Shown here piece by piece: positions 11,880 through 52,494 of a stretch of DNA of 64,000 bases. How positions within the stretch are numbered: position 1 is the stretch's first letter; the number at the start of each line of letters is the position of its first letter. The stretch comes from Clostridia bacterium (GTDB taxonomy: Bacteria > UBA6262 > WVXT01), in contig WJOT01000078.1 of the NCBI GenBank assembly GCA_009619095.1, forward strand, positions 6,232-70,231, written 5' to 3'. The position numbers and the translations under genes were made by a program. Below the pieces are notes generated by a model that made no database searches, had not been told where the DNA came from, and was given only the letters and a program-made list of their open reading frames with translations.

Positions 11880-12024
11880 GGTTCTCCCCTATCCTCCCAG
11901 AACCTCAGAGCCGGCCCGCTCACTGCCGCTGTCCCTCGGACCCGGGGCGCTCACCATCTCGCGCCCATCGCTACCACGGAGCTCCTTATTCGTCGCTCCA
12001 GCGACCCTCCTGTGTATCAAACGG
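11880..12024 (-). other. GC-rich conserved about 145-nt element, copy 1, in the 5' leader of gene 11035-11850
   Basis: About 85% identical to 12740-12887 and far GC-richer than flanking DNA. Contains conserved hairpins GGGCG-N12-CGCCC and GTCGC-TCCA-GCGAC. Confidence 0.5.
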
Positions 12025-12739: not shown

Positions 12740-12887
12740 CTCTTCGGACTTACCCTTCTCTCCCCTGTCCTCAGGGCCGGCCCGCTCACTGCCGCTGTCC
12801 TTCGAACCCGGGGCGTTCACCGTCTCGCGCCCGTCGCTACCCGGAGCTCCTTATTCGTCGCTCCAGCGACCCCTCCTGTGAATCATT
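12740..12887 (-). other. GC-rich conserved element, copy 2, immediately 3' of tRNA-Ser(GGA) and in the 5' leader of gene 12091-12669
   Basis: See 11880-12024. Confidence 0.5.
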
Positions 12888-12988: not shown

Positions 12989-13672
12989 TTATTCCTCTTC
13001 TTCAGTATTTATGGTAAGGTTCACAACTGTCGATTTAGGGACATTCTTTCCCGGCCTGGGATTCTGCCGCAAAATGATATCGAATAATTTCTCTATATCG
13101 CATACATAGTCTATCCGACCTACTCTCAAGCCTGCCCTCTCTAAAATCTCCTTTGCTTGTCCCAACCTTCTGCCAAGAACGAGGTCTATTATTGTCCCTT
13201 CTTTCACTATGGAATCGGGAGAAGGAAAGGTGGAAATTATGGAACCCTTGGCAACAGAAACGGAAGATCGCTCGGTTATGCTACCTATTTTAAGCCTCAT
13301 CTCCGCTAATATCCTGCGTGCCTCCTCCAGGGGAACCGAAGAGAAATTGGGAAGGGCTATTCCTCCCTTACCCTTACTGAGCACAACGCTTATGGGTGTG
13401 CCTTTTTTAACCAGAGAGCCTGGAAGAGGGCTCTGATTGATAATTGAGCCTTCGGGAATAGAAGGGTCTTCTGTTTCCGACTCCACAAGCAAGAAGAGAC
13501 TTCTATTTTCCATAATAAGTCTACCCTGGTCAATGGTTGCCCTTCTTACATCCGGGACTTCCACTCTCTCCAGAAATGGAATCCCGTAAACAAAGAAAAG
13601 AAAACAGACCGCTGCCGAAACAAAAATAGAAGTAAAAAATGGTATGAAGAAAATTTTTGCGCCGCCTCTCAT
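12989..13672 (-). CDS. PASTA-domain membrane protein (three PASTA repeats)
   Basis: N-terminal TM followed by three about 65-aa repeats of the form G..V.LVL. Confidence 0.6.
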   Translation of the reverse strand: MRGGAKIFFIPFFTSIFVSAAVCFLFFVYGIPFLERVEVPDVRRATIDQGRLIMENRSLFLLVESETEDPSIPEGSIINQSPLPGSLVKKGTPISVVLSKGKGGIALPNFSSVPLEEARRILAEMRLKIGSITERSSVSVAKGSIISTFPSPDSIVKEGTIIDLVLGRRLGQAKEILERAGLRVGRIDYVCDIEKLFDIILRQNPRPGKNVPKSTVVNLTINTEEEE

Positions 13673-13673
13673 T

Positions 13674-15665
13674 CTATTCCTCCTTCTTCTTGAGGATGAT
13701 TATCTCCACCCGTCTATTCAGGTCCCTTCCCCTCACAGTCCTATTTGAGGCAATTGGACTCCCTTCTCCCCAGCCTTTTACACTGAGCCGAGCGGGGTCG
13801 ATTTCTCCTGTTTCTACCAGATAGTCATAGACTGCTTTAGCCCGCATCTTCGATAATTTCTGGTTATAGGCGCTGCTTCCCACGCTATCGGTATGTCCCT
13901 CAATAGAGACCTTATTGAGAGGGTACTCTTTGAGCACTCTTATCGCCTGCTGTATAGCAACGTAACCATCTTCACGAAGAACAGATTTACCTATGCCGAA
14001 AAGGACCTTTACCGAGAAAGTAATCTTTAATCCTCGCTCCTCTTTTTCTACTTTTATCCCTTTCCCAAGTTTGGGTAATGGCATTTCCACCTTCAATTTT
14101 TTAGAAGAAGAGGTTCCCTTATTCCAGGCAACGTCATAGACGACTAATTTTACCCTATATTCCCCAGCAGGAACAGTTGCCTTGTAGTAATCGTCTTTAC
14201 CATCCCAGACAATAGATTGGGGAAGTGGCTCTTCGGCCTTAAAAGTTTTCGCCAGCTTCCCCTGTCTATTGTATATCTCAACCATCCAGCTTCTTATCTC
14301 GTTGGCATCTTGCGCTTTAAGCTGGAGAGTCACTGTATCATCTATGCCATCGCCATTGGGAGAAAATGCTCTTGTAGTAATAATAATCTCAGCCCTGGGT
14401 AAAGTATTGTCAACTAAAGTCGGTGTCCATTCAGACTTTGCAGGCAATCTCCCCCACTCTTTTGTCTCTATCTGACAAGTATATAGTCCATCAGGAACCA
14501 GATTGCCTTCTGCATCAGTTCCATCCCAAGCGATAGAGATAGGTAAAATCTCCCCGGACTTTCTTAATACAATCGCACCGTCTTTATCTTTGATTCGAAA
14601 TTTCCACTTTTCTACTTTCTCTAAATTCTCACCCGCTATTACCAGGTCAGTGACATCGTCCATTCCATCATTATTGGGAGAGAAAACCCCGGGATCAGCC
14701 TGTAATATAAGCTTTACCGTGGGGAGTCTTCCTGCCTTACCAAATCTGTATCCCAAAGAGACCATATGAGTTGTTCCCAGAGAAGCATACGGCGCCCACG
14801 CATAATTCGTTAGAAGTCCCCTCCAACGTAAGCCTGCGCCCACTCTCAACCCGGCTAAATTGCTTAGCCCTGTCTTTTGTAAGTCATACTTATATCCTGC
14901 TCTAACTGCAAAAGTCTCCAACAAAACATGCTCAATCCCTAACGAGAAATTAAAATCTCCCTCTATAGGTTTATTTGCATCGAGGGCAATTGAAAGGTCG
15001 ACTCTCTCCTGGGAAAATTTAATCTTACAAGCTAAACCAGCTTTGATATTTATAGGCAGCTTCTCCCCCCTCATCTTTGTCCCCAGGTTCTGCCCCACCA
15101 ATCCAAAGGAAAATGTACGGTTAGGAGTGGAAAGCATAATTCCCACATCAGAGGAAAAAGCAGAAGCTTTATTTCGGTCGATTCTACTCTCTAATCCCAT
15201 TAAGTTAAAGCCGAAACAGAAGGACTTTGACACGGGGAGACCATAAGCCAAACCTCCATAAATATCGTATACATTAAACTTGCCCTGGGGCGCGTCGCGG
15301 CTTATTTTGTCCATTCTGCCCATATGGAGATAAGAGACATTAATCCCCAGAGTTCCCAAAGATATAGGGTGGATGTAACCCAAAAATTCATGGCTTATAT
15401 TGCCCAGCCAGAAATTGTGCATTGTCTCTAATTCTGGATTAAAAACGAAAGCCAATCCTGCCGGGTTGCAGCGTATTGCGCTCACATCATCAGCTAAAGC
15501 GCAGAATGCTTCTCCCATTCCCATAGCCCGGGTGCCAATGTTCATTTTCAAGAAGTTCCCTGTGGTAGTGCCTACACCTGATGAGGAGAAAACTGAATTT
15601 GGAAAATATGCTATGAAAAGAAGAATAATTAAGAAAACAACGCCAGAACCGAATAACTTCTTCAT
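13674..15665 (-). CDS. Outer-membrane protein with an N-terminal FadL/PorV-like beta-barrel, two FSPNGDG Ig-like repeats and a C-terminal OmpA peptidoglycan-binding domain
   Basis: Signal peptide, then GTRAMGMGEAFCALADDVSAIRCNPAGLA (FadL/PorV-type N-terminus). FSPNNDGMDDVTDL and FSPNGDGIDDTVTL repeats follow. C-terminus EGHTDSVGSSAYNQKLSKMRAKAV...NRRVEI is an OmpA_C domain. Confidence 0.65.
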   Translation of the reverse strand: MKKLFGSGVVFLIILLFIAYFPNSVFSSSGVGTTTGNFLKMNIGTRAMGMGEAFCALADDVSAIRCNPAGLAFVFNPELETMHNFWLGNISHEFLGYIHPISLGTLGINVSYLHMGRMDKISRDAPQGKFNVYDIYGGLAYGLPVSKSFCFGFNLMGLESRIDRNKASAFSSDVGIMLSTPNRTFSFGLVGQNLGTKMRGEKLPINIKAGLACKIKFSQERVDLSIALDANKPIEGDFNFSLGIEHVLLETFAVRAGYKYDLQKTGLSNLAGLRVGAGLRWRGLLTNYAWAPYASLGTTHMVSLGYRFGKAGRLPTVKLILQADPGVFSPNNDGMDDVTDLVIAGENLEKVEKWKFRIKDKDGAIVLRKSGEILPISIAWDGTDAEGNLVPDGLYTCQIETKEWGRLPAKSEWTPTLVDNTLPRAEIIITTRAFSPNGDGIDDTVTLQLKAQDANEIRSWMVEIYNRQGKLAKTFKAEEPLPQSIVWDGKDDYYKATVPAGEYRVKLVVYDVAWNKGTSSSKKLKVEMPLPKLGKGIKVEKEERGLKITFSVKVLFGIGKSVLREDGYVAIQQAIRVLKEYPLNKVSIEGHTDSVGSSAYNQKLSKMRAKAVYDYLVETGEIDPARLSVKGWGEGSPIASNRTVRGRDLNRRVEIIILKKKEE

Positions 15666-15673
15666 ACCACCTC

Positions 15674-16045
15674 CTACTTTAGAACGACGACCTTTACGGT
15701 CTTCGAAGATTTATCGATTTTGAGATTGACCAGGTATACTCCGTTTCCCACAACCTCGCCCTTATCATTCTTCCCATACCATTTTATAGTATCTTTCTTT
15801 TTTGTACTGTCTTCTTCCAATGTCTTTACAAGTTCTCCATTGATTGAATAGATTCTAATAGTTGCTCCTTCTTCTTTTACTTCATAGCGTATCTCGGTAT
15901 ACTGATCTTGAGCGTCTGAGGCTTCTGGATTGAACGGGTTATTCCATTCAATTCTTAGAACAATCCCATTGCCTGCTCCCAAAGGAAAAGCAAGAAGAGT
16001 AACTACCAATAGAGTGCAAAAAATGACTTTACCCAAATTTCCCAT
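15674..16045 (-). CDS. Small secreted protein consisting essentially of a T9SS type-A C-terminal sorting domain (FlgD-Ig-like)
   Basis: Signal peptide followed by WNNPFNPE...IRIYSINGELVKTL...WYGKNDKGEVVGNGVYLVNLKI, the Por-secretion CTD pattern. Stop is 9 nt upstream of the OMP gene start. Confidence 0.6.
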   Translation of the reverse strand: MGNLGKVIFCTLLVVTLLAFPLGAGNGIVLRIEWNNPFNPEASDAQDQYTEIRYEVKEEGATIRIYSINGELVKTLEEDSTKKKDTIKWYGKNDKGEVVGNGVYLVNLKIDKSSKTVKVVVLK

Positions 16046-16133
16046 TTTTTCTCACCAACCTTTCTCAAATTTCGCATTTCTGTTACGCAAAGCGGAACAC
16101 CGGGGCGCTCAAGCGTCTTTTGCCCGTCGCTAG

Positions 16134-16191
16134 TAAAAAAATGACTCTGATCCCTTTTTTTCACATAATTAAGTATTGTGTCCCCGGAATT
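16134..16191. repeat. R55 miniature repeat, copy 3, inserted between tRNA-Ser(CGA) and a remnant of the GC-rich element
   Basis: See 10440-10503. The flanking 16085-16133 is homologous to part of the GC-rich elements. Confidence 0.7.
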
Positions 16192-16199
16192 AAATCAAA

Positions 16200-16286
16200 C
16201 GGAGAGAGGAGGATTCGAACCTCCGATCCCGAAATCGGGATAGCGGTTTTCGAGACCGCCCCGTTCAACCACTCCGGCATCTCTCC
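16200..16286 (-). tRNA. tRNA-Ser (anticodon CGA), type II
   Basis: GGAGAGA-TG-CCGGAGTGGTTGAACGG...anticodon loop CTCGAAA...variable arm ATCCCGATTTCGGGAT...GGAGGTTCGAATCCTCC-TCTCTCC-G. Confidence 0.8.
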
Positions 16287-16292
16287 ATAGAA

Positions 16293-16739
16293 CTATTTGC
16301 CCTTAAAAAATTCGAAATGACTTTTAATTTCTGGATGGGCTTCCAAATAGTAAATCTCAAATACTCTAAACGGCACAAAGAGTATAATTCCGAGCATAAT
16401 CCCGATTGCCAACTTCCCTATCTCCCAGCGCGTAATCATAAGATAGATAATATAGAGAGTTGTCAGAATCATTATCGAGTGGCTTATCTGGGCAGGCATC
16501 GTCCTGGAAGACCAATCGAAAATAAAAAATCCCCCTGCTCCATAGAATAGAAGGAAAGGGATGGAAATATTCATTAATATTTTCTTCCCAAAAATCAGAG
16601 CAAATACTACAAACATCTGGATGAGAGAAGGAATATCCGTCATAACCCAGGAAATGAAATTGTATTTAAGAAAATAGAGGAATATAAACCCCGTCCATGC
16701 AACACATATCCCATTTGCAAAAATTAAAAAAAATTTCAC
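16293..16739 (-). CDS. Hypothetical integral membrane protein (4 TM)
   Basis: 148 aa, strongly hydrophobic. Flanked by tRNA genes. Confidence 0.45.
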   Translation of the reverse strand: MKFFLIFANGICVAWTGFIFLYFLKYNFISWVMTDIPSLIQMFVVFALIFGKKILMNISIPFLLFYGAGGFFIFDWSSRTMPAQISHSIMILTTLYIIYLMITRWEIGKLAIGIMLGIILFVPFRVFEIYYLEAHPEIKSHFEFFKGK

Positions 16740-16760
16740 TCCTGATCCCTATAAATTTAA

Positions 16761-16832
16761 AGGGCTCAGAGGGAATCGAACCCTCACACCAGGGTCCGCA
16801 ACCCTGTGCTCTATCCGTTGAGCTATGAGCCC
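16761..16832 (-). tRNA. tRNA-Arg (anticodon GCG)
   Basis: GGGCTCA-TA-GCTC-AACGGATA-GAGC-A-CAGGG-TTGCGGA-CCCTG-GTGT-GAGGG-TTCGATT-CCCTC-TGAGCCC-T. Confidence 0.7.
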
Positions 16833-16856
16833 ATGACTTTACGCTCTGCCACTTTG

Positions 16857-16901
16857 GGCGACCACCCCGATACATCGGGATAAACTGCGTGTCGCCCCTA
16901 C
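16857..16901. repeat. Nested-hairpin element GGGCGACCACCCCGATACATCGGGATAAACTGCGTGTCGCCCCTAC (module Z of the CCGAT repeat family)
   Basis: Also present at 19017-19061 (duplicate copy) and 40991-41036. Confidence 0.55.
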
Positions 16902-16932
16902 ATTAACACGGAACTATTGCTCTGCTACTCCT

Positions 16933-17298
16933 TTATTTATTTAACATTTCTTCTATTTTATCTAAAAGGACCTTCTTTCCGAATGGTTTGCTTATGAAAT
17001 AGCTCGGGCCTTCTGGCTTTAAGGTCTCGTATAACTCTCTGTCTTTAACTAAACCCGAATTGAAGATTACTGGCAGATTGAGAAATTCAGGCTTCTCCCT
17101 TAACCTTTTAATACTCTTATAGCCGCTCTGCCCGGGCATAATCACATCACAGATGATTAAGTCAGGTCTCTCTTTTTTGACTTTTTCTATCAAATCCAGC
17201 CCATCTCTAGCCAGGATTACTAGATATTTATCTTTGAGTAAACTTCCCAGTAACTCTCTCACATCCTCTTCATCATCTGCTACAACAATCTTTTTCAT
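16933..17298 (-). pseudogene. Truncated copy of the response-regulator gene (second REC domain only), created by the tandem duplication
   Basis: Identical to the C-terminal 121 aa of 19093-19911. It begins at an internal Met. Confidence 0.45.
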
Positions 17299-17825
17299 TG
17301 TGGCTGTAGCCTCAAAAAAGCAGAAGCTTTATTTCGGTCGATTCTACTCTCTAATCCCATTAAGTTAAAGCCGAAACAGAAGGACTTTGACACGGGGAGA
17401 CCATAAGCCAAACCTCCATAAATATCGTATACATTAAACTTGCCCTGGGGCGCGTCGCGGCTTATTTTGTCCATTCTGCCCATATGGAGATAAGAGACAT
17501 TAATCCCCAGAGTTCCCAAAGATATAGGGTGGATGTAACCCAAAAATTCATGGCTTATATTGCCCAGCCAGAAATTGTGCATTGTCTCTAATTCTGGATT
17601 AAAAACGAAAGCCAATCCTGCCGGGTTGCAGCGTATTGCGCTCACATCATCAGCTAAAGCGCAGAATGCTTCTCCCATTCCCATAGCCCGGGTGCCAATG
17701 TTCATTTTCAAGAAGTTCCCTGTGGTAGTGCCTACACCTGATGAGGAGAAAACTGAATTTGGAAAATATGCTATGAAAAGAAGAATAATTAAGAAAACAA
17801 CGCCAGAACCGAATAACTTCTTCAT
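17295..17825 (-). pseudogene. Truncated N-terminal (170 aa) copy of the FadL/PorV-like-OmpA OMP gene, created by the tandem duplication
   Basis: Identical to the N-terminus of 13674-15665. It diverges at the duplication junction (17314/17315) and terminates after 6 codons. Confidence 0.5.
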
Positions 17826-17833
17826 ACCACCTC

Positions 17834-18205
17834 CTACTTTAGAACGACGACCTTTACGGTCTTCGAAGATTTATCGATTTTGAGATTGACCAGGTATACT
17901 CCGTTTCCCACAACCTCGCCCTTATCATTCTTCCCATACCATTTTATAGTATCTTTCTTTTTTGTACTGTCTTCTTCCAATGTCTTTACAAGTTCTCCAT
18001 TGATTGAATAGATTCTAATAGTTGCTCCTTCTTCTTTTACTTCATAGCGTATCTCGGTATACTGATCTTGAGCGTCTGAGGCTTCTGGATTGAACGGGTT
18101 ATTCCATTCAATTCTTAGAACAATCCCATTGCCTGCTCCCAAAGGAAAAGCAAGAAGAGTAACTACCAATAGAGTGCAAAAAATGACTTTACCCAAATTT
18201 CCCAT
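17834..18205 (-). CDS. T9SS-CTD small secreted protein (duplicate copy)
   Basis: Identical to 15674-16045. Confidence 0.6.
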   Translation of the reverse strand: MGNLGKVIFCTLLVVTLLAFPLGAGNGIVLRIEWNNPFNPEASDAQDQYTEIRYEVKEEGATIRIYSINGELVKTLEEDSTKKKDTIKWYGKNDKGEVVGNGVYLVNLKIDKSSKTVKVVVLK

Positions 18206-18293
18206 TTTTTCTCACCAACCTTTCTCAAATTTCGCATTTCTGTTACGCAAAGCGGAACACCGGGGCGCTCAAGCGTCTTTTGCCCGTCGCTAG

Positions 18294-18351
18294 TAAAAAA
18301 ATGACTCTGATCCCTTTTTTTCACATAATTAAGTATTGTGTCCCCGGAATT
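18294..18351. repeat. R55 miniature repeat, copy 4 (within duplication copy B)
   Basis: Identical to 16134-16191. Confidence 0.7.
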
Positions 18352-18359
18352 AAATCAAA

Positions 18360-18446
18360 CGGAGAGAGGAGGATTCGAACCTCCGATCCCGAAATCGGGA
18401 TAGCGGTTTTCGAGACCGCCCCGTTCAACCACTCCGGCATCTCTCC
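18360..18446 (-). tRNA. tRNA-Ser (CGA), duplicate copy
   Basis: Identical to 16200-16286. Confidence 0.8.
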
Positions 18447-18452
18447 ATAGAA

Positions 18453-18899
18453 CTATTTGCCCTTAAAAAATTCGAAATGACTTTTAATTTCTGGATGGGC
18501 TTCCAAATAGTAAATCTCAAATACTCTAAACGGCACAAAGAGTATAATTCCGAGCATAATCCCGATTGCCAACTTCCCTATCTCCCAGCGCGTAATCATA
18601 AGATAGATAATATAGAGAGTTGTCAGAATCATTATCGAGTGGCTTATCTGGGCAGGCATCGTCCTGGAAGACCAATCGAAAATAAAAAATCCCCCTGCTC
18701 CATAGAATAGAAGGAAAGGGATGGAAATATTCATTAATATTTTCTTCCCAAAAATCAGAGCAAATACTACAAACATCTGGATGAGAGAAGGAATATCCGT
18801 CATAACCCAGGAAATGAAATTGTATTTAAGAAAATAGAGGAATATAAACCCCGTCCATGCAACACATATCCCATTTGCAAAAATTAAAAAAAATTTCAC
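18453..18899 (-). CDS. Hypothetical integral membrane protein (duplicate copy)
   Basis: Identical to 16293-16739. Confidence 0.45.
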   Translation of the reverse strand: MKFFLIFANGICVAWTGFIFLYFLKYNFISWVMTDIPSLIQMFVVFALIFGKKILMNISIPFLLFYGAGGFFIFDWSSRTMPAQISHSIMILTTLYIIYLMITRWEIGKLAIGIMLGIILFVPFRVFEIYYLEAHPEIKSHFEFFKGK

Positions 18900-18920
18900 T
18901 CCTGATCCCTATAAATTTAA

Positions 18921-18992
18921 AGGGCTCAGAGGGAATCGAACCCTCACACCAGGGTCCGCAACCCTGTGCTCTATCCGTTGAGCTATGAGCCC
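18921..18992 (-). tRNA. tRNA-Arg (GCG), duplicate copy
   Basis: Identical to 16761-16832. Confidence 0.7.
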
Positions 18993-19092
18993 ATGACTTT
19001 ACGCTCTGCCACTTTGGGCGACCACCCCGATACATCGGGATAAACTGCGTGTCGCCCCTACATTAACACGGAACTATTGCTCTGCTACTCCT

Positions 19093-19911
19093 TTATTTAT
19101 TTAACATTTCTTCTATTTTATCTAAAAGGACCTTCTTTCCGAATGGTTTGCTTATGAAATAGCTCGGGCCTTCTGGCTTTAAGGTCTCGTATAACTCTCT
19201 GTCTTTAACTAAACCCGAATTGAAGATTACTGGCAGATTGAGAAATTCAGGCTTCTCCCTTAACCTTTTAATACTCTTATAGCCGCTCTGCCCGGGCATA
19301 ATCACATCACAGATGATTAAGTCAGGTCTCTCTTTTTTGACTTTTTCTATCAAATCCAGCCCATCTCTAGCCAGGATTACTAGATATTTATCTTTGAGTA
19401 AACTTCCCAGTAACTCTCTCACATCCTCTTCATCATCTGCTACAACAATCTTTTTCATTGTGGCTGTAGCCTCACTTTTCTTTTTGATAGGAACTACCTT
19501 TGCAGTTTGACCACCTGGAGGGGCTACTCTGGTTTCCTTCCTTTTAAAAGGTGTCTTTCCTAAGGCTTTCTCCACTGCTGTTAAAAATTGTTCCCGAGAG
19601 AAAGGCTTGGGGAGATACTGTATAACATTCAATTCCTTCATCTGCAGGTCGAACCCGGCTATTGTGGCTATAATTATAGGGATATTTCTGGTAGCTTTAT
19701 CCTTCCGAATTTTCTTTACCATCTCGTAGCCGCTCAACCTGGGCAGAACATAATCCATCACAATTAAATCGGGTTTCTTTGATTGGACGAGTTCCAACCC
19801 CGACTCTCCATCTCTGGCTTCGATAAATTCAACATTGAATCTTCTCAAATGGACCTTCACTAAGAACCTTGCATCAATATCACTATCTACAATAAGCACT
19901 TTCTTAGGCAT
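19093..19911 (-). CDS. Response regulator with two tandem receiver (REC) domains and no output domain
   Basis: VLIVDSDIDARFL...DLIVMDYVLPRLSGYEM and a second IVVADDEEDVRELL...DLIICDVIMPGQSGYK. Confidence 0.7.
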   Translation of the reverse strand: MPKKVLIVDSDIDARFLVKVHLRRFNVEFIEARDGESGLELVQSKKPDLIVMDYVLPRLSGYEMVKKIRKDKATRNIPIIIATIAGFDLQMKELNVIQYLPKPFSREQFLTAVEKALGKTPFKRKETRVAPPGGQTAKVVPIKKKSEATATMKKIVVADDEEDVRELLGSLLKDKYLVILARDGLDLIEKVKKERPDLIICDVIMPGQSGYKSIKRLREKPEFLNLPVIFNSGLVKDRELYETLKPEGPSYFISKPFGKKVLLDKIEEMLNK

Positions 19912-19922: not shown

Positions 19923-21350
19923 CTAAAGGACACTTATTAAAATAATTGCCATTAAACCTATGGTAATCGCAATCCCTGGCCCACCCCAGAAGCTTCTCTT
20001 CTTTGGATGGACTGCTTCTATTTTTCTCTTTACTATAGCTACATTGCCCTTTTCATCTTCAGATTGAACAGTAATTATGTTTTTTCCCAAGGTTAAATGT
20101 ACTACAGTGAAAAATTTTCCTTCCTCATCGACGTATATGCGTTTATCATTCACTCTTACTATGCAACCTTCATCTGTCCTGCCCTTCACTTTAACAAATT
20201 CATCTGGGATTTTTTCCCTTTCTTGGGGAGAAGACACCTCTAACCCGGGAGGAGTAGTAACAACTGTAAAACTTCTGACTGGAGAATATTTGCTCTCGAA
20301 CTCGTCTTCATAAACATAAGAGATTCTCCAGAAATATTCGCCATCGGGAAGTTTCCTCCTCTGGTACTCTGCGATACTTTTCAATCTCTTATCTTCGACG
20401 ATATCCATAAATTCGGGGTCAGAAGCGACCTGAAGATGGAGATATTTTATCCCCAGTCTTCTCTTCTTTTCAGAGAAATCGAGCCCGACAAGAGTCTCCT
20501 CCAAATTAATCTCTTCTTCTACCACTTCCTGTTCACCTAACTCAGGAGCAGCTGGTTTCTTTGCCAGCTCCTCCTTAGCCTGGTCCAGGTCAGGCGGGGG
20601 CGGCAGGGCGATAGGTTTTTCCGGAGCGTAATCCAATTTTGCCTGAGACATAAATCCTTCAGGAATTGTCACTCTCTCTCCCTGGGATATGAGGTCTACT
20701 TTTCCCTTGTAAACAGATACCAGGGTCGTCTTGTCCTTCTTTATCTTTGTCTTGAAGTCGGGTTTGGCGAGCGTAGGTGAGATTTGGGGTTCAACTATTG
20801 CAGAAGCAGTGAGAACCTTTGCCTCTGATGCTCTCAACTCTCCGGAAAGTAACTCCACTGTCTCCTCTTTCTCTTCCGGTCTAAGAATAACCAGTGAGTT
20901 CTCCCCTAACCTGATGATCTCGCCTTTTATAAATTTTATATGAGCGAGAGAGTCAGAAAGAGTTCTGATTCCATCTTCAGAGAAGAGCCTCATACGGAGA
21001 ACCGCCCTCTCCCATTCTGATTCTCCTCTTTTCCGGGTACGCACCTTGTTTCTTATACGGATTATGTCAGCAATCTCATCTTTCAGTAAGCCGACGGGGA
21101 CCTTGATTTTCATTGCCGGAAGAATGAGGTGGGGATTTTTGACCAACTCTTTATTATATTTGTAAATCTCTGGCCACCGTGATGGGTCTCGTAGATATAT
21201 CTCAGCAAACTTGTGTAGTGTATCTCCCTTCTTTACAGTCACTTCGATAAGCTCGACCCTCTCCTCCTGAGCTTGAGATAGGAGAAAGAGAGACAGAATA
21301 GCCATAAAAGTGATAATTAGAATGGTTGCCTTCTTCCCCATCAACCACAT
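19923..21350 (-). CDS. LysM-domain protein with a signal peptide and a C-terminal TM anchor
   Basis: LysM region VTVKKGDTLHKFAEIYLRDPSRWPEIYKYNKELVKNPHLILPAMKIKVP. C-terminus GPGIAITIGLMAIILISVL. Confidence 0.5.
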   Translation of the reverse strand: MWLMGKKATILIITFMAILSLFLLSQAQEERVELIEVTVKKGDTLHKFAEIYLRDPSRWPEIYKYNKELVKNPHLILPAMKIKVPVGLLKDEIADIIRIRNKVRTRKRGESEWERAVLRMRLFSEDGIRTLSDSLAHIKFIKGEIIRLGENSLVILRPEEKEETVELLSGELRASEAKVLTASAIVEPQISPTLAKPDFKTKIKKDKTTLVSVYKGKVDLISQGERVTIPEGFMSQAKLDYAPEKPIALPPPPDLDQAKEELAKKPAAPELGEQEVVEEEINLEETLVGLDFSEKKRRLGIKYLHLQVASDPEFMDIVEDKRLKSIAEYQRRKLPDGEYFWRISYVYEDEFESKYSPVRSFTVVTTPPGLEVSSPQEREKIPDEFVKVKGRTDEGCIVRVNDKRIYVDEEGKFFTVVHLTLGKNIITVQSEDEKGNVAIVKRKIEAVHPKKRSFWGGPGIAITIGLMAIILISVL

Positions 21351-23491
21351 ACGATTTCTCCTTTTTTACTCTTTACCAACTTTTTGGGAAGCCAGAAAGA
21401 GAACCTGCTTCCCTTTCCCATTTCCGACTCCACCCAGATTTTTCCTAAATGGGCTTCTACTCCATGTTTGGCGATAGTTAGCCCTAAACCAGTCCCCCTC
21501 CTCTTTTCTTCCTTCCCGATTCCAACCTGCTGAAATTTGTCAAATACCGTGTCTAAATAGTCTGGAGGAATGCCCATCCCGGTATCAGCGACTGTAATTT
21601 GAATCCTATCCGGGAAGTCTTGTCCAATTATATCCACGCTCCCTTCAGAAGGAGTAAACTTTATGGCATTGGAGACCAGATTCATAATTACCCGCTCCAT
21701 CAGGTCACTGTCAGCCCGAATTTTGGGAAAGGTATCAAATCCCTGACTGGATAATTTCACCTCTGATTTTACTGCCTGTGGTTCCATTATCTTGATGATC
21801 CTTTCAACGGTCTCCTTTGGGTCGAAGTGTCTAAGAGTAAGTTTCATCCTACCGGTTTCTAACTTTGCCACATCTAAAATGTTATTGATCATGTCCAGAA
21901 GTTTCCGGCTGGAAGCATCTATTATTTTCAAAAATTCCTTCTGCTCTTCATTTATTTCGCCAGCCGAGCCATCAAGCAGAACCTCCGCGAACCCACGAAT
22001 GGAAGTCATTGGGCTTCTGAGGTCATGAGTTATGGAATGGACAAAATCATCTTTCATCTTTTCTATCTCTTTCTCCAGAGTAATGTCGTGGAGCACTGTA
22101 ACCACACCCAGATTCTTTCCTTTCTCAGTCTTTACGATATTGGTGCCTGTCTTTATGAACTTCCGGTAAGGACCCTGAGAGAGGTCGATCTCCCTCACTA
22201 CAGTCTTCTCTTTCTGCTCTATTATCTCATGAAGGCTCTGGGCAATCCTCTTGTCTCCAATGTAATCTATCAAATCTTTGCCCAGCACCTCTTCTCCGCT
22301 AACTTGAAGCATTTCCCGGGCCTGCTTGTTCATAAGAGATATCCTGCCAGAAAAATCTGTCATCACAATTCCATCGGCAATACTGTAGATGACTGCTTCT
22401 GTCTTGGTCTTCTCGGCAATTATCCTGTCAATCTGCAGGTCATTATATTCCTTCAATTTCTGGGTCATTAAATTGAAGGTATCGGCTAGAGTTAAAAGTT
22501 CATCGTGAGTCTCCACCACAACTTTATGGGTAAAATCGCCTTCGGCTACCTTTCCCGCACCCACAATTAATTTGAGGATGGGACGGCTCAATCCCCGGGC
22601 AGTAAGAAACCCCACCAGGGCTGCTCCAAAGATGGACACAATTATCCAGAGGATGGCGTTCTGCTTCATTTTTATTGCCGAGATATAGGCATCATTTTTT
22701 GCCTGCTGCACAATCATCCCCCAGCCTAACCTCTTCACTGGAGCATAAGCACCAACCATCTCCACTCCCCTCTCGTCAGTGAACTCCTTGCTTCCCAGAG
22801 TCTTGCCAGAAAGGACCTCCTGGACAATAGCCAACTGAGTGGCATCCTCAAAGTTCTTAGCCCTCTTTTTCTGGGGGTGAGCTATAATTTTCCCTTCCTT
22901 ATTTACAAGAAAGGCAAAACCAGTCCTTCCGATCATTGTACTGTAAATCTTATGCCAGAGCTTGTTCACCGTGACCACAATGTAAATGACCTGCCCTCCC
23001 ACCATAGGATAAGCCACGTTCAACCTGGGATCGTCTCCTACGTAGTAGAGAGAACCGATATCATGACTGCCTCGAAGCGCTTTAATAAATAACTTATCTT
23101 CCCTCAGATTAAGTAGCCTTGGTTTCCTTTCCAGCCTGGGGTTATAGACTTTTATTATCTCCGTTCCTTTACTATTCACGATAGAAATAGTAACGAAATC
23201 CTCGCTTGTCTCCAAAAGAGATTTCAGCACAACTCTCTTTTCTGACCAGGACATTTCTGCAATCTTCAGAGAAGTGATTATAAATGATAGTTTCCCTCTT
23301 AGATTATCTATGTAATCGTCAATCCTCTCCGCCAACGACTGAGCCAGATGGGTATGGAGCTCTAAAATAGAATCCTGAAGAGCCACCCTATTGATATTAA
23401 TCATCCTCAGTCCCACAATGGAGAGCGGAAGGACAGCAAGAACGACCATAATAAGGATAAATTTATGGAATAGTCTAATTTTTATTGCCAT
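21341..23491 (-). CDS. Sensor histidine kinase (TM, Cache-like, HAMP, PAS, HisKA, HATPase_c)
   Basis: H-box HDLRSPMTSIRGFAEVL. N and G boxes NLVSNAIKFT, DTGMGIP, GTGLGLTIAK. Confidence 0.8.
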   Translation of the reverse strand: MAIKIRLFHKFILIMVVLAVLPLSIVGLRMININRVALQDSILELHTHLAQSLAERIDDYIDNLRGKLSFIITSLKIAEMSWSEKRVVLKSLLETSEDFVTISIVNSKGTEIIKVYNPRLERKPRLLNLREDKLFIKALRGSHDIGSLYYVGDDPRLNVAYPMVGGQVIYIVVTVNKLWHKIYSTMIGRTGFAFLVNKEGKIIAHPQKKRAKNFEDATQLAIVQEVLSGKTLGSKEFTDERGVEMVGAYAPVKRLGWGMIVQQAKNDAYISAIKMKQNAILWIIVSIFGAALVGFLTARGLSRPILKLIVGAGKVAEGDFTHKVVVETHDELLTLADTFNLMTQKLKEYNDLQIDRIIAEKTKTEAVIYSIADGIVMTDFSGRISLMNKQAREMLQVSGEEVLGKDLIDYIGDKRIAQSLHEIIEQKEKTVVREIDLSQGPYRKFIKTGTNIVKTEKGKNLGVVTVLHDITLEKEIEKMKDDFVHSITHDLRSPMTSIRGFAEVLLDGSAGEINEEQKEFLKIIDASSRKLLDMINNILDVAKLETGRMKLTLRHFDPKETVERIIKIMEPQAVKSEVKLSSQGFDTFPKIRADSDLMERVIMNLVSNAIKFTPSEGSVDIIGQDFPDRIQITVADTGMGIPPDYLDTVFDKFQQVGIGKEEKRRGTGLGLTIAKHGVEAHLGKIWVESEMGKGSRFSFWLPKKLVKSKKGEIVCG

Positions 23492-44391: not shown

Positions 44392-45312
44392 TTATCGTGG
44401 TTCCCAGAGCCTCTTCCACAGGGTTTCCACTTTTCTTTTCCTCATTAATTTATAGATTTCTCTTAGTTTAGCTCTGGTAGATTCTTCCCCTTTCTTTATA
44501 CAATAATCTAACTTCTTAAAATTTACCCAGTGAATATTATCCACATTTGGCTTTATCACCAGATCTGCCTTTTTCAACCGAAGTTCGTTAAGAAATAACC
44601 CTGAAATATAGCTAGTCCTGAGAATAACGTCAAGTCCTGTCTTCATCTCCTGATAGTTACTACGCGGGAAAGACCCGTGCACATCCACACCTGCCACTAA
44701 ATCGGCACCCAATCTGAAAGCAACATCCACGGGAACCAGGTTCACCGCACCTCCATCGACCAATCTCCTGCCCTCCCATTTCAAGGGTGGGAAAAGGCCA
44801 GGAATAGTGATGCTTGCCCGAACCGCCTCTCTCAAAGGCCCCTTAGTAAAACAGAGTTCTCTATTGGAAGTTAGGTCAGTACTGACACAAGCAAAGGGAA
44901 TCCTTAAATCTTCTATATTCTTATCTGGCAGGATACTATTTACTATTGCCTCTGCCCTCTTCTCACTAACCAGAGCAAGCTTTACTAAACTCAGGTTATA
45001 AATCAACTTCCACTTTGCATAAGAGACAATCTTTTTAATGGGTTTTGAGCCTTCTTCTCTTATCTCATCCTTTAAGAATTCGAGCCTGGCTCGTTTGTAT
45101 TCACTGCTCTCCAAAAATTCTAAACCTTTCTTCTCAATAGAAGAAGCATTATACCCACAGGCATAGAGCGCCCCGATTAGGGCCCCTGAGCTGGTGCCGG
45201 CAATAACATCGATGGATATTCCCTCATCCTCCAGAACCTTCAACACCCCTATGTGCGCCAACCCCCTTGCTCCTCCGCCACCCAGGGCTAAACCGAACCT
45301 CAATTTTCGCAT
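44392..45312 (-). CDS. Patatin-like phospholipase
   Basis: GGGARGLAHIGVL...GTSSGALIGA (GxSxG) and a DGG motif. Confidence 0.8.
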   Translation of the reverse strand: MRKLRFGLALGGGGARGLAHIGVLKVLEDEGISIDVIAGTSSGALIGALYACGYNASSIEKKGLEFLESSEYKRARLEFLKDEIREEGSKPIKKIVSYAKWKLIYNLSLVKLALVSEKRAEAIVNSILPDKNIEDLRIPFACVSTDLTSNRELCFTKGPLREAVRASITIPGLFPPLKWEGRRLVDGGAVNLVPVDVAFRLGADLVAGVDVHGSFPRSNYQEMKTGLDVILRTSYISGLFLNELRLKKADLVIKPNVDNIHWVNFKKLDYCIKKGEESTRAKLREIYKLMRKRKVETLWKRLWEPR

Positions 45313-45690
45313 ATATTTTCCTTATACAAAATGAGAGCTCCTAAATTGTTTCACGTGAAACAATTTTCCAGCAAAAAGGGGTTAAAAAGGGACCTCAAAA
45401 AGGGCTCTGACCCCCTCTTTTTCAAACCTCAATTTTCGCATATATTTTCCTTATACAAAATGAGAGCCCCCTAAATTGTTTCACGTGAAACAATTTTCCA
45501 GCAAAAAGGGGTCAAAAAGGAGCCTCAAAAAGGGCTCTGACCCCCTCTTTTTCAAACCTCAATTTTCGCATATATTTTCCTTATGCGAAATGAGAGCTCC
45601 CAAATTGTTTCACGTGAAACAATTTTCCAGCAAAAAGGGGGCTAAAAATAGAGTTGACCCCTTTTTTTTAGTTTATGAGATGTCGGTTTT
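45298..45690. repeat. About 129-bp tandem direct repeat x about 2.8. Each unit carries the patatin RBS and first 7 codons, plus a 22-bp perfect palindrome AATTGTTTCACGTGAAACAATT.
   Basis: Units start at 45298, 45427 and 45557. Palindromes are at 45344-45365, 45474-45495 and 45603-45624. Confidence 0.85.
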
Positions 45691-46161
45691 CCACAATTTT
45701 GTCAGTTCGACTCCAGCCCTGAAGAGGTATTTCTTTCCCCTGAGCCACGTCTTTACCGAACCGACTCCTACTACTTTTCCTCCTTTTGCTTCCACTTTGC
45801 CCTTTAAAATATCGATAGCGCGGCGATATCCTGTTCCTCTTGAGGTAACAAATAGGATTACCTTTTTATCCATAAGATTACAGGTCTGGAGAAATGTATT
45901 AAGGGCAGGAGTGGGACTGGATGCCCAAACAGGTGTGCCCAATATAATCAGTTCATATTTGCTTAAATCAAAACCTGAAGGAGCCACTTCAGTGTTTAAG
46001 CCAAGGTGGGCATCCCGCGCCCCTCGGAGAAAACCAAAAGGCCCTTTTCTCTTTTTGAGGTCTCTTATCTCCACTAAGTCTCCACCCAGTTCCTGTTGAA
46101 ATTTCTCTGCTAAAAATCTTGTCTTCCCCGTCCGGGAATAGTAGAGAATCACGCTTTTCAT
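45673..46161 (-). CDS. Flavodoxin
   Basis: MKSVILYYSRTGKTRFLAE... flavodoxin-like fold, 162 aa. Confidence 0.7.
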   Translation of the reverse strand: MKSVILYYSRTGKTRFLAEKFQQELGGDLVEIRDLKKRKGPFGFLRGARDAHLGLNTEVAPSGFDLSKYELIILGTPVWASSPTPALNTFLQTCNLMDKKVILFVTSRGTGYRRAIDILKGKVEAKGGKVVGVGSVKTWLRGKKYLFRAGVELTKLWKTDIS

Positions 46162-47922: not shown

Positions 47923-49404
47923 TTATTTGCCTATACAGAATTTGGAGAAGATTCTACTTAAAATATCTTCAGTGGCAGTCTCTCCCACAATTTCTCCCAG
48001 CGCCTTCAGTGCCCGGCGTAAATCGAGGGCTATAAATTCTTCCGACTCTCCCCTCCCGCAAGCTTCTATTCCCTTTTTTAAGGATTCTTCAGCTTTTACC
48101 AGAGCATCTTGATGCCTAACGTTTGTAACCAGAACAGCATCAGAGATACTCACTTCTCCCTTAATAAATAGATGGTAGATTAGCTCTTGTAAATCTTTTA
48201 TTCTTATCTTTTTGGTTGCTGATACTTTAATTAAAGGCGGGTTTCTCAGAATAGAGGGATTGCTTAAACTGTCATGTGCGGGGTTAGCTGAATTAACCGA
48301 TAATGATTCTCTTTCGGGCTCAAGTCGATTAAGGCAAGATGCCCACAGTTCTCTTATTTCTTCCTCAGATACCACCTGGGGAAGGTCACATTTATTAGCC
48401 ACTAAGATTGTTTTCCTGCCCAGTAGGTTTTCTGCGATACGACAATCCTCTTCGCTCAAGGGTATCGATAAATCGATTACAAAAAGGACAAGGTCTGCAA
48501 GTGCAATAGACCTTTTCGTCCGTTCTATCCCTGCCATTTCAATTTCATCCCGGGCATGTCTGATTCCCGCGGTATCCATAATCTTCATGGGAATACCGAG
48601 AATATTAACCATATCTTCAACCACATCTCTGGTCGTTCCCGGAACAGGAGTTACAATCGCCTTATCCTCCTCAAGAAGCACGTTCAACAGGGAGGACTTC
48701 CCCACATTAGGCTTGCCCACTATGGTTGTCTGCAAACCTTCTCGTAAAATTCTTCCTGATTGCGCAGACTTCAGAAGTTCTTTTAACTCCCCGGAGAGTT
48801 TCTCCATCCTCTCCGCTAATTCTCCTCGGGAAAGATGGGGAATATCCTCTTCAGAATAGTCGAGGCAAGCTTCAATGTGGGCCAGAAGGTCTACTATACA
48901 GTCACGAATCCTGTTTACAGTTATAGATAAGTGTCCTTCCATCTGGTGGAGTGCACAATTCAGGGCGGCGTCAGTTCGAGACCTGATTATATCACAGACT
49001 GCCTCGGCCTGGATAAGGTCTATTCTGCCATTTAGGAAAGCTCTCAGGGTGAACTCCCCCGGCTCTGCTAACCGGGCACCTTCCATTAAACATAATTCCA
49101 GAACCTTGCGTAAAGGAACTATCCCCCCATGGCAAGAAATCTCTGCCACATCTTCACGGGTATAAGTATAAGGCGCCCGCATCACGCTGAGGAGAACTTC
49201 GTCTACCAATTTTTCTCTATCGTAGATGTGTCCATAATGAATGGTAAATGTGTCTACCCCGGCTAAATTCTTCTTCCTTTTGGGAATGAACAGTCTCAGC
49301 ACAATGGGGATAGCCTGGCTTCCACTTAAGCGGACAATGCCAAATCCGCCCTCCCCCATTGGCGTGGAGATGGCAGCAATTGTATCCTCTGTATCAATGT
49401 TCAA
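47923..49404 (-). CDS. mnmE: tRNA modification GTPase MnmE
   Basis: G-domain GKPNVGKSSLLN. C-terminal CIGK motif. Confidence 0.9.
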   Translation of the reverse strand: MNIDTEDTIAAISTPMGEGGFGIVRLSGSQAIPIVLRLFIPKRKKNLAGVDTFTIHYGHIYDREKLVDEVLLSVMRAPYTYTREDVAEISCHGGIVPLRKVLELCLMEGARLAEPGEFTLRAFLNGRIDLIQAEAVCDIIRSRTDAALNCALHQMEGHLSITVNRIRDCIVDLLAHIEACLDYSEEDIPHLSRGELAERMEKLSGELKELLKSAQSGRILREGLQTTIVGKPNVGKSSLLNVLLEEDKAIVTPVPGTTRDVVEDMVNILGIPMKIMDTAGIRHARDEIEMAGIERTKRSIALADLVLFVIDLSIPLSEEDCRIAENLLGRKTILVANKCDLPQVVSEEEIRELWASCLNRLEPERESLSVNSANPAHDSLSNPSILRNPPLIKVSATKKIRIKDLQELIYHLFIKGEVSISDAVLVTNVRHQDALVKAEESLKKGIEACGRGESEEFIALDLRRALKALGEIVGETATEDILSRIFSKFCIGK

Positions 49405-49418
49405 ATCGAACCTCTCTC

Positions 49419-50111
49419 CTATTTCTTCTTTGGAGAGACCACCACTCTCCTGAAATTGCCTTCTCCCTGTGAGGTAGTCTCCACATCCCTATCATCCTTC
49501 AATGCAAGATGGATTACTCTGCGCTCAGCGGGATTCATTGGTTCTAACTCACGAGACCTGCCCTTACTCTTCACTTCATCAGCCACCTCCCCGGCCATCT
49601 TCACTAATGCATTCTCCCGTCGCTGACGATAATTTTCAGTATCTACAATTACCTTTGTTCTCGTCTTTTCGTCTCTATTCACAATTAGATTCACAATTAG
49701 CTGGAGGGCATTTAGAGTCTGACCTTTCTTCCCGATTAGAATTGCCCCGTTTTCACTTTTGATGTCTGCCACTACCTTCTCCCCTTCCAAGGAGGTGGTT
49801 ACTTCTGCTTCCATTCCCATTAATTTTAGGATTTCATTCAGTTCTTCCTTTACTTTTTTCTGAGCAGAAATAAGATTGGCGCCAGAAAGTTTCTCCCGAG
49901 CCACTTCTCCTCTTTCCCCTGTTTCTAAACCTTTTACAGGTTTAACTATCAGCTTGATTTTAGCCGGGCTTGCCCCCATGAGACCAAATAATCCTGCCTT
50001 GCCTTCATCGAGAATCTTTACTTCCACATCGTCCCGGGAAAGGCCGAGCTCTTTTAATCCTTTCTCAATTGCTTCCTCGACATTCTTGCCACTAAATTCT
50101 TTCTCTTCCAT
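49419..50111 (-). CDS. khpB: Jag/KhpB RNA-binding protein (KH + R3H)
   Basis: Located between mnmE and yidC. R3H RRVIHLALKDDRDVETTSQGEG. Confidence 0.8.
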   Translation of the reverse strand: MEEKEFSGKNVEEAIEKGLKELGLSRDDVEVKILDEGKAGLFGLMGASPAKIKLIVKPVKGLETGERGEVAREKLSGANLISAQKKVKEELNEILKLMGMEAEVTTSLEGEKVVADIKSENGAILIGKKGQTLNALQLIVNLIVNRDEKTRTKVIVDTENYRQRRENALVKMAGEVADEVKSKGRSRELEPMNPAERRVIHLALKDDRDVETTSQGEGNFRRVVVSPKKK

Positions 50112-50130
50112 TGGAAAATCTCCTATAAAT

Positions 50131-51687: not shown

Positions 51688-51716
51688 TGAATTTCCTTTC
51701 TAATTTAGAATAAAAT

Positions 51717-51935
51717 TTATTTTACAGGGTCGTAACCTCCGGGGTGGAAAGGATGACATTTCAAAAGTCTTCTTATTCCTAAGAATGACCCCTTCGCTAT
51801 TCCGTATTTCTTAAGGGCTTGAATTGTGTACTCCGAACAGGTAGGATAGAAACGGCAAGCCCTGGGGAGAAGAAATGAAATCTTCTGATAAAATTTAATT
51901 ACCATTACAGTTATATTTACTACCATTTCCCTCAA
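51717..51935 (-). CDS. yidD: Membrane protein insertion efficiency factor YidD
   Basis: [31 protein letters not shown]...[14 protein letters not shown]. Confidence 0.8.
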
Positions 51936-52348: not shown

Positions 52349-52359
52349 AGATTCTTCTT

Positions 52360-52494
52360 CTAAGAAGACAACCTTCTTCTCTTCTTTTTTCTCCTTGCCC
52401 GCAAAATTCTCCGGCCACTCTTTGTGGCCATTCTCTTTTTGAAGCCGTGAGTTCTCTTTCTTCTTCTAACTTTTGGTTGGTAAGTCCTTTTCAT
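52360..52494 (-). CDS. rpmH: 50S ribosomal protein L34 (not in the supplied ORF track)
   Basis: Translates to [44 protein letters not shown]. Confidence 0.85.

What the first reader, a model, noticed from the sequence alone, without database searches (positions are those of the whole stretch)
15155..19474. Perfect 2160-bp tandem duplication that copies two tRNAs and two genes and truncates an OMP gene and a response-regulator gene
Sequence 15155-17314 is repeated exactly at 17315-19474. The unit contains the 5' 170 codons of the FadL/PorV-like-OmpA OMP gene, the T9SS-CTD small-protein gene, tRNA-Ser(CGA), a 4-TM membrane protein gene, tRNA-Arg(GCG) and the 3' REC domain of a tandem-REC response regulator. 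The junction therefore yields one intact and one truncated copy of both the OMP and the regulator. A zero-divergence duplication is either very recent, an amplification under selection (for example for tRNA or CTD-protein dosage), or an assembly artefact.
Basis: seen in the sequence. Interest (0 to 1): 0.6.

Follow-up and report, generated by a model that had tools for sequence, protein, structure and literature searches.

The report
Recent exact 2.16-kb tandem duplication
An uncultured sediment bacterium's genome carries a 2,160-base segment (two tRNA genes, two small genes and parts of two others) twice in a row without a single difference; this is most likely a real, very recent duplication, an ordinary kind of bacterial mutation.

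Summary
Bases 15155-17314 and 17315-19474 are identical (0 mismatches in 2160), head to tail, with no microhomology at the junction. The gene content is as described.

One intact copy of every gene remains. The junction adds a 176-aa stub of the PorV-family outer-membrane protein. Its TGA stop overlaps the ATG of a stand-alone second receiver domain of 121 aa.

Four close relatives (91-98% nt identity) carry the same gene order once, with both breakpoint sites uninterrupted, so single copy is ancestral.

An assembler artefact is unlikely. In an independent k=31 de Bruijn assembly of public reads (Logan, SRR2426730, 100% identical strain), one contig ends exactly 30 nt into the unit. The next contig starts at the unit's first base. 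That is a graph branch at the breakpoint, as a tandem junction predicts, and no known strain SNP explains it.

I could not inspect reads that span the junction or read depth. Copy number, fixation in the population and library chimeras therefore stay open.

Selection for tRNA dosage is not supported: the duplicated tRNAs read minor codons.

Verdict: a real, recent tandem duplication (about 0.75). It is an ordinary phenomenon of low interest.

The parts
15155..17314 (.). Copy A of the 2160-bp unit. It is the downstream copy in the direction of transcription (minus strand).
   Evidence: identical to 17315-19474.
17315..19474 (.). Copy B of the 2160-bp unit (upstream copy in the direction of transcription).
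17295..17334 (-). The novel junction (17315|17314). On the minus strand it reads ...GCTTCTGCTTTTT|TGAGGCTACAGCCACAATGA. OMP codon 170 is joined to the regulator's inter-domain linker (codon 146), with no shared bases at the join.
17295..17825 (-). Chimeric junction ORF of 176 aa: signal peptide plus about the first half of the PorV-family barrel (OMP residues 1-170) plus LRLQPQ. Its TGA stop overlaps the next ATG (ATGA). GenBank annotates it as MBA7509522.1 / MQY65876.1.
16933..17298 (-). Stand-alone REC2 ORF of 121 aa, starting at internal Met152 of the regulator. It is a complete receiver domain. GenBank annotates it as MBA7509521.1 / MQY65875.1.
   Evidence: Response_reg, 76.7 bits.
19093..19911 (-). 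Intact tandem-REC response regulator (272 aa). Its 3' part from codon 146 lies inside copy B.
13674..15665 (-). Intact outer-membrane protein (663 aa): PorV/PorQ-family barrel, two FlgD_ig/CHU_C Ig-like domains and a C-terminal OmpA domain. Its first 170 codons lie inside copy A.
   Evidence: NF033709 at 162 bits, cut-off 90.
15674..16045 (-). Small secreted protein with a T9SS type A sorting domain, copy A.
   Evidence: TIGR04183 at 35.5 bits, cut-off 23.
17834..18205 (-). Small secreted protein with a T9SS type A sorting domain, copy B.
16199..16287 (-). tRNA-Ser(CGA), copy A.
18359..18447 (-). tRNA-Ser(CGA), copy B.
16293..16739 (-). Multi-pass membrane protein with no family match, copy A. 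It is 148 aa as the longest ORF and 116 aa as called by NCBI and JGI.
18453..18899 (-). Multi-pass membrane protein, copy B.
16761..16832 (-). tRNA-Arg(GCG), copy A.
18921..18992 (-). tRNA-Arg(GCG), copy B.
19923..23491 (-). Upstream context, not duplicated: a sensor histidine kinase (21341-23491; dCache/HAMP/PAS/HisKA/HATPase) and a FecR/LysM-like protein (19923-21350). With the regulator they form one co-directional cluster.

Best explanation
This is a genuine, evolutionarily very recent head-to-tail tandem duplication in the chromosome of an uncultured diderm sediment bacterium. It is about 33-37 kb from oriC. The most likely mechanism is one illegitimate, homology-independent exchange between sister chromosomes. 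That exchange joined codon 170/171 of the PorV-family OMP gene to codon 146 of the upstream response-regulator gene.

No function is lost, because one intact copy of each gene is kept. The duplication doubles the dose of tRNA-Ser(CGA), tRNA-Arg(GCG), a small T9SS-sorted protein and a small membrane protein. It also creates two by-product ORFs at the junction. One is a signal peptide plus half-barrel OMP stub. The other is a complete stand-alone receiver domain whose ATG overlaps the stub's TGA, placing it where it could be translationally coupled.

Shown: the structure, single-copy ancestry, and a branch at one breakpoint in an independent assembly of raw reads. Inferred: that this branch is the tandem junction, the recombination mechanism, and the absence of selection. 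Zero divergence and the expected instability of such repeats suggest a young, possibly polymorphic and transient variant rather than an adaptation.
For: (1) One search shows an exact 2160-bp direct repeat with one clean junction.

(2) Relatives are single-copy. L007 (91-95% nt), L033 (95-98%), L027 (93-95%) and L030 (about 95%) each carry regulator, tRNA-Arg, membrane protein, tRNA-Ser, small protein and OMP once. The OMP and the regulator linker are uninterrupted at both breakpoint sites.

(3) The junction has indirect support in raw reads assembled by a different pipeline. Logan contig SRR2426730_574 (L039, 9011 bp, 100% identical to window 28455-19445) ends exactly 30 nt into the unit. Contig SRR2426730_9092 (L003, 1638 bp, 100% identical) starts at the unit's first base, so the two overlap by k-1 = 30 nt. 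Logan uses distinct 31-mers per accession and discards singleton k-mers (PMC12424806). Linked but unmerged contigs therefore mean a branch, not a coverage gap. Both contigs are recorded in 2 samples.

(4) None of about 10 related contigs has a SNP at the positions that could mimic that break (19475 or 19444). The nearest known SNP, at 19443, predicts a break one base away.

(5) A de Bruijn assembler can only emit two copies of a 2160-bp repeat if junction k-mers exist in the reads. This is general knowledge of assemblers, not tested here.

(6) There are no Ns and no other long exact repeats in the window.

(7) Weak evidence: in the SPAdes assembly ERZ3612385, the contig made of 1513 bp of flank plus 2025 bp of unit has coverage 13.1. 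A nearby flank contig has coverage 5.9. That would fit more than one copy.
Against: No read or independent contig that actually spans the junction was seen. The junction pattern has 0 hits in JGI metagenome contigs, although short-read assemblers would rarely assemble across it.

The mirror-image branch at the other breakpoint could not be shown. Look-ups of cut gene products failed or were uninformative.

Zero microhomology is what random joining, including chimeras or artefacts, most often gives, and it is atypical of slippage-type duplications.

SRR2426730 may be the very read set behind the deposited contig. If so, the Logan result rules out an assembler error but not a library artefact.

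The ERZ3612385 coverage comparison is confounded by strain mixture, because the flank contig is only 99.77% identical.
Confidence: 0.75

Rival explanations
1. The duplication is an artefact. Possible sources are a chimeric library molecule (for example from whole-genome amplification of a low-biomass sediment sample), a mis-resolved graph loop, or two overlapping contigs joined without trimming. The real genome would then be single-copy.
For: The copies have zero divergence, the junction has zero microhomology, and both breakpoints fall at arbitrary positions inside genes. The deposited contig comes from a metagenome assembly and its derived MAG. No independent contig spans the junction. All close relatives are single-copy. 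The same genome also carries a private 36-nt deletion 2 kb away, which could hint at local assembly quirks.
Against: An independent k=31 assembly of raw reads branches exactly at the unit's first base, in 2 samples, and no known strain SNP explains it. A chance break at that exact base has odds of roughly 1 in several thousand, given break-free contigs of 1.6 and 9 kb. There are no Ns at the join. Untrimmed-overlap joins need two contigs that share 2.16 kb, which a single de Bruijn assembly does not produce. A random chimera would have to recur at least twice in each of two runs to survive Logan's singleton filter.
Confidence: 0.2
2. The duplication is real and is held in the population by selection for higher dosage of something in the unit. 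Candidates are the two tRNAs, the T9SS-sorted small protein and the membrane protein. Alternatively, selection could favour the new stand-alone receiver domain acting as a phosphate sink or alternative output of the adjacent kinase. The true copy number could exceed two.
For: Tandem repeats of 2 kb are normally lost quickly by homologous recombination (established knowledge). Presence at assembly-level frequency in two samples therefore hints at maintenance. The coverage ratio in ERZ3612385 would fit about 3 copies if taken at face value. REC2 is a complete receiver-domain match (Response_reg profile 1-110 of 111). Reading the sequence by eye, the acidic pair, the acceptor Asp, Ser/Thr and Lys-Pro are all present. 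Its ATG overlaps the upstream stop as ATGA, which favours coupled translation.
Against: The duplicated tRNAs read minor codons: TCG is 9.6% of Ser codons, and CGT plus CGC are 16% of Arg codons. No relative shows a duplication or extra copies of these genes at this locus, so there is no recurrence. The junction also produces a half-barrel OMP stub with a signal peptide, which is more likely a burden than a benefit. In very slowly dividing subsurface populations, a neutral duplication could persist without selection.
Confidence: 0.15
3. The unit is a mobile or site-specifically integrating element, for example one that targets tRNA genes and has inserted in tandem.
For: It contains two tRNA genes, which are frequent integration targets (general knowledge).
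Against: The unit holds no integrase, transposase or terminal repeats. Its ends lie inside an OMP gene and a regulator gene. Its whole content sits in the same order and place, once, in relatives.
Confidence: 0.01

Closest known systems
Spontaneous tandem segmental duplications and amplifications in bacterial chromosomes (the duplication-amplification literature from Salmonella and E. coli, including heteroresistance amplifications)
   Same: It is a head-to-tail direct repeat with one novel join point. An intact copy of every gene is retained, the genes inside are doubled in dose, chimeric ORFs form at the junction, and the copies show zero divergence, as expected for young and unstable events.
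   Different: Most characterised duplications are larger (10-1000 kb). They usually form between long repeats (IS, rrn, REP) by RecA, or at microhomologies of a few bases. This one is 2.16 kb with no homology at all at the join. It is seen in an uncultured sediment population and not under laboratory selection.
Innovation-amplification-divergence and domain fission at duplication junctions
   Same: The junction separates the second receiver domain of a two-REC regulator into its own ORF. It sits downstream of a different gene's translation signals. This is the kind of raw material those models invoke.
   Different: There is no evidence of expression, of selection or of any divergence between the copies.
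Assembly-generated false duplications (untrimmed contig overlaps, mis-resolved graph loops)
   Same: The copies are exactly identical, the breakpoints are arbitrary and there is no microhomology.
   Different: An independent assembly from raw reads branches at precisely the breakpoint. The join carries no gap or N.

Membership tests
Bacterial tandem segmental duplication | Two directly repeated, adjacent copies with nothing in between. | tested here: met
   15155-17314 equals 17315-19474, contiguous.
Bacterial tandem segmental duplication | A single novel junction joins the distal end of the unit to its proximal start, and the outer boundaries match the ancestral sequence. | tested here: met
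   both outer boundaries are collinear with relatives. Only 17315|17314 is novel.
Bacterial tandem segmental duplication | The ancestral or related genomes carry the segment once. | tested here: met
   L007, L033, L027 and L030 are single-copy.
Bacterial tandem segmental duplication | The junction is present in sequencing reads, and read depth over the unit is about twice that of the flanks. | tested here: inconclusive
   The support is indirect only. A Logan de Bruijn branch sits exactly at the unit start. There is also a weak coverage hint.
Bacterial tandem segmental duplication (RecA-dependent or slippage subtype) | Repeats or microhomology at the two breakpoints. | tested here: not met
   0 bases of homology. 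This points to the homology-independent (illegitimate) subtype.
Assembly artefact from joined overlapping contigs | The join coincides with a scaffold gap or Ns, and reads give no support for a second context at the boundary. | tested here: not met
   No N. An independent read-level branch lies at the boundary.
Integrative or mobile element | A recombinase or transposase gene plus terminal or attachment repeats, with variable presence at the locus. | tested here: not met
   Searches find none. The content is conserved in place in relatives.
PorV/PorQ family outer-membrane protein (identity of the truncated gene) | Score above the NCBIfam NF033709 cut-off over the whole barrel. | tested here: met
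   162.3 bits against a cut-off of 90, residues 33-308. The 170-residue stub keeps only about half of this region. Whether the organism has a complete T9SS was not tested.

The most novel reading that the evidence does not exclude
The duplication is a selected amplification caught in a natural subsurface population. It would raise the dose of two rare-codon tRNAs and a T9SS cargo. By domain fission it would also create a new CheY-like single-domain regulator, translationally coupled to the OMP stub, that rewires the adjacent two-component system. That would be a natural snapshot of gene birth at a duplication junction.
Probability: 0.08. Interest if true: 0.45.

Novelty: new member of a known kind. 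Interest (0 to 1): 0.18.

Why it matters
The main value is for quality control and annotation. The deposited contig (GenBank proteins MBA7509519-24 and MQY65872-79) carries two junction ORFs that are by-products of a duplication, and the region should be flagged. The case also shows that breakpoints of independent de Bruijn contigs (Logan) can serve as a reads-free test of whether a suspicious repeat in a MAG has support in the raw data. Biologically it is one more example of the frequent, transient tandem duplications of bacteria, here in a slow-growing sediment lineage. It would gain interest only if read data showed that it is fixed, amplified beyond two copies, or expressed.

Tried and rejected
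1. Tandem Repeats Finder cannot see the repeat, because its maximum period is 500. I used a direct comparison instead.

2. An exact 30-mer scan of GTDB representative genomes found no hits, so the source genome is not a species representative.

3. A scan of JGI metagenome contigs for the junction pattern found 0 hits. This is uninformative, because short-read assemblers collapse or break such repeats.

4. Exact-product look-ups for the junction ORF, the full OMP and the PASTA protein in the contig index found nothing on record. The proteins are nevertheless in GenBank.

5. I tried to show the mirror-image graph branch at the other breakpoint through cut gene products. In one search even the positive controls were missing, so that test is void.

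6. The hypothesis that strain SNPs explain the Logan break was rejected. None of about 10 related contigs varies at 19475 or 19444, and the nearest known SNP predicts a break one base off.

7. I looked for microhomology or inverted repeats at the breakpoints. There are only purine-rich chance similarities, nothing that aligns.

8. The sigma-70 promoter and terminator scan gave no usable signal for transcription units.

9. I could not identify the source study or its assembly method. Literature searches for the run and WGS accessions returned nothing relevant.

10. The mobile-element reading was rejected, because there is no recombinase and the gene order is conserved in relatives.
Full report
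**Observation.** A direct comparison shows that window 15155-17314 and 17315-19474 are identical at all 2160 positions. The run of identity at an offset of 2160 is exactly 2160 bases long. The boundaries are therefore unambiguous, and the ends share no bases (zero microhomology). The window has no N. A 31-mer census shows exactly two copies and no partial third copy. Tandem Repeats Finder misses the repeat only because its period limit is 500.

**Anatomy.** All genes in the region lie on the minus strand. In the direction of transcription the order is:
- sensor kinase (23491-21341)
- FecR/LysM-like protein (21350-19923)
- intact two-REC response regulator (19911-19093, 272 aa)
- tRNA-Arg(GCG)
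- membrane protein
- tRNA-Ser(CGA)
- small T9SS-sorting-domain protein
- a 176-aa ORF made of OMP residues 1-170 plus LRLQPQ (17825-17295)
- a 121-aa ORF that is exactly the regulator's second REC domain, from Met152 (17298-16933)
- tRNA-Arg(GCG), membrane protein, tRNA-Ser(CGA) and small protein a second time
- the intact 663-aa OMP (15665-13674)

The tRNAs come and the family assignments. The OMP is a PorV/PorQ-family barrel (NF033709, 162 bits against a cut-off of 90, residues 33-308), followed by two FlgD_ig/CHU_C domains and an OmpA domain. The small protein passes the T9SS type A sorting-domain model (35.5 bits against 23). The membrane protein matches no family and has 4-5 hydrophobic segments.

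At the junction the stub's TGA overlaps the ATG of the REC2 ORF as ATGA. Nothing is destroyed. The duplication adds a second dose of four genes plus two junction by-products.

**Source and relatives.** The OMP, the junction ORF, the REC2 ORF, the regulator and the small protein are all deposited in GenBank. The records are MBA7509519-24 ('subsurface metagenome', locus tag ES705_0147x) and MQY65872-79 (a MAG labelled 'Clostridia bacterium', GH147_...), on a contig of 80,975 bp. The duplication is therefore part of a public metagenome assembly and the MAG binned from it.

Protein- and pattern-based scans recovered many related contigs from marine and subsurface sediments. The four closest each carry the segment once: L007 (91-95% nt), L033 (95-98%), L027 (93-95%) and L030 (about 95%). 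In each, the regulator linker and OMP codon 170 are uninterrupted. Single copy is therefore ancestral, and the duplication is private to this strain.

**Real or artefact?** This is the only real question, and reads cannot be mapped with the tools available. The best available surrogate is independent assemblies of public reads.

Logan assembles each SRA run with distinct 31-mers, discards k-mers seen only once, and reports contigs longer than 150 bp (PMC12424806). In run SRR2426730, contig _574 (L039, 9011 bp) is 100% identical to window 28455-19445 and ends exactly 30 nt inside the unit. Contig _9092 (L003, 1638 bp, 100% identical) starts at the very first base of the unit, 19474 (equivalent to 17314). 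The two overlap by exactly k-1 = 30 nt.

Two contigs that are linked in the graph but not merged mean a branch at that node. Reads offer a second context at precisely the duplication breakpoint. This is what a tandem junction predicts, because the unit's first 31-mer then has two predecessors. The 60-nt junction unitig itself would fall below Logan's reporting length. Both contigs are recorded in two samples.

The alternative is a strain SNP at 19475 or 19444. None of about ten related contigs shows one. The nearest known SNP, at 19443 in L030 and L007, would put the break one base away from where it is. These Logan contigs run 1.6 and 9 kb without a break. A chance break at exactly this base is therefore a roughly one-in-thousands event.

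A de Bruijn assembler also cannot output two copies of a 2.16-kb repeat unless junction k-mers exist in the reads (general knowledge, not tested here).

A weak further hint comes from the SPAdes assembly ERZ3612385. The contig made of 1513 bp of flank plus 2025 bp of unit has coverage 13.1. A nearby flank contig has coverage 5.9, but it is only 99.77% identical, so it reflects a strain mixture.

**What remains open.**
- No read or contig that physically spans the junction was seen. The JGI scan gave 0 hits.
- The mirror-image branch at the other breakpoint could not be demonstrated. In one search even the positive controls were absent, so that test is void.
- SRR2426730 may be the same read set from which the deposited contig was built. 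In that case the Logan result excludes an assembler error but not a recurrent library chimera.
- Copy number (2 or more) and whether the variant is fixed are unknown.

I put a real duplication at about 0.75 and an artefact at about 0.2.

**Mechanism and consequences.** Zero microhomology and breakpoints inside two unrelated genes argue against RecA-mediated exchange between repeats and against slippage. They fit a single illegitimate, homology-independent join between sister chromosomes. This is inferred, not shown.

The locus lies about 33-37 kb from oriC. The rnpA, yidC and mnmE genes sit on the minus strand, and dnaA and dnaN on the plus strand, at 47.9-55.8 kb. The cumulative GC-skew minimum is near 53 kb.

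The dosage-selection idea is not supported. The duplicated tRNAs read minor codons: TCG is 9.6% of Ser codons, and CGT plus CGC are 16% of Arg codons. No relative shows extra copies.

The junction ORFs look like by-products. A signal peptide plus half a barrel is probably useless or mildly harmful. The stand-alone REC2 matches the receiver-domain profile nearly end to end. Read by eye, the acidic pair, the acceptor Asp, Ser/Thr and Lys-Pro are all present. It is positioned for coupled translation, so a phosphate-sink or rewiring role is conceivable but untested.

**Comparison with the known, and verdict.** This is an ordinary bacterial tandem segmental duplication of the homology-independent subtype. 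It is small, exact and young, and it sits in an uncultured diderm sediment bacterium whose NCBI labels are inconsistent (Clostridia, Firmicutes, Elusimicrobia). It is a new instance of a well-known kind of event, not a new kind. Its practical value is as an annotation flag. It also demonstrates that breakpoints of independent de Bruijn contigs can vouch for a suspicious repeat in a MAG. Interest is low, about 0.18.

Noticed in passing
window 47923-55781, with the GC-skew minimum near 53000: This is a chromosomal replication origin region. mnmE (47923-49404), yidC (50131-51687) and rnpA (51932-52348) lie on the minus strand. dnaA (52840-54252) and dnaN (54657-55781) lie on the plus strand. Cumulative GC skew turns at the same place, and gene orientation switches there: 37 of 45 long ORFs in the window are on the minus strand.
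   Followed up: partly
window 13170-13180 (PASTA-domain gene 12989-13672, minus strand): The window genome has a private 36-nt in-frame deletion, 12 aa between PASTA repeats, relative to all 12 related contigs examined. The deletion is flanked by an imperfect 11-nt direct repeat (GTTCTCAGCAG / GTTCTTGGCAG). It is a second private structural change, 1.5-2 kb from the duplication. The exact 227-aa product is not on record in the ENA, Logan or JGI contig index.
   Followed up: partly
window 45296-45648: A 130-bp tandem repeat of 2.7 copies (95% matches) sits in the stretch between a patatin-like phospholipase gene (44392-45312) and a flavodoxin-like gene (45673-46161). Its nature is unknown.
   Followed up: no
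window 11903-12019 and 12769-12885; also 36-mers shared at 10471/12049 and at 11977/12842: Copies of a dispersed repeat of about 118 bp (92% identical) flank the 192-aa gene next to tRNA-Ser(GGA). Contigs of other assemblies break near here; for example, L040 starts at 12942.
   Followed up: no
window 16761-16832 and 18921-18992; L007 3833-3904: This is a tRNA-Arg with anticodon GCG. To my knowledge bacteria normally decode CGU/CGC/CGA with tRNA-Arg(ACG) edited to ICG by TadA, so a GCG anticodon is unusual. It is conserved in the related species L007. I did not check whether an ACG tRNA or tadA also exists in this lineage.
   Followed up: no
GenBank labels of the source and of relatives: The same lineage is labelled 'Clostridia bacterium', 'Firmicutes/Bacillota bacterium', 'Elusimicrobia bacterium' or plain 'bacterium' in different deposits. 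It nevertheless encodes a PorV-family outer-membrane barrel, OmpA, AsmA/TamB-like proteins and T9SS-type sorting domains, which makes it a diderm. The Clostridia label is probably wrong.
   Followed up: no
protein P0001 (Logan, 197 aa): This related OMP fragment ends in ...EIGRAHV. That looks like the translation of the Illumina adapter AGATCGGAAGAGCACACGTC, which would mean adapter read-through assembled into a Logan contig and called as protein.
   Followed up: no
window 19923-23491: The sensor kinase (dCache-HAMP-PAS-HisKA-HATPase) overlaps by 10 nt the start of a FecR/LysM/glucodextranase-B-like, membrane-anchored protein. The two-REC regulator, which has no output domain, follows. This is an unusual kinase, FecR-like and REC-REC module upstream of a PorV-family/T9SS-cargo pair, and it is conserved in relatives (L007, L033).
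   Followed up: no
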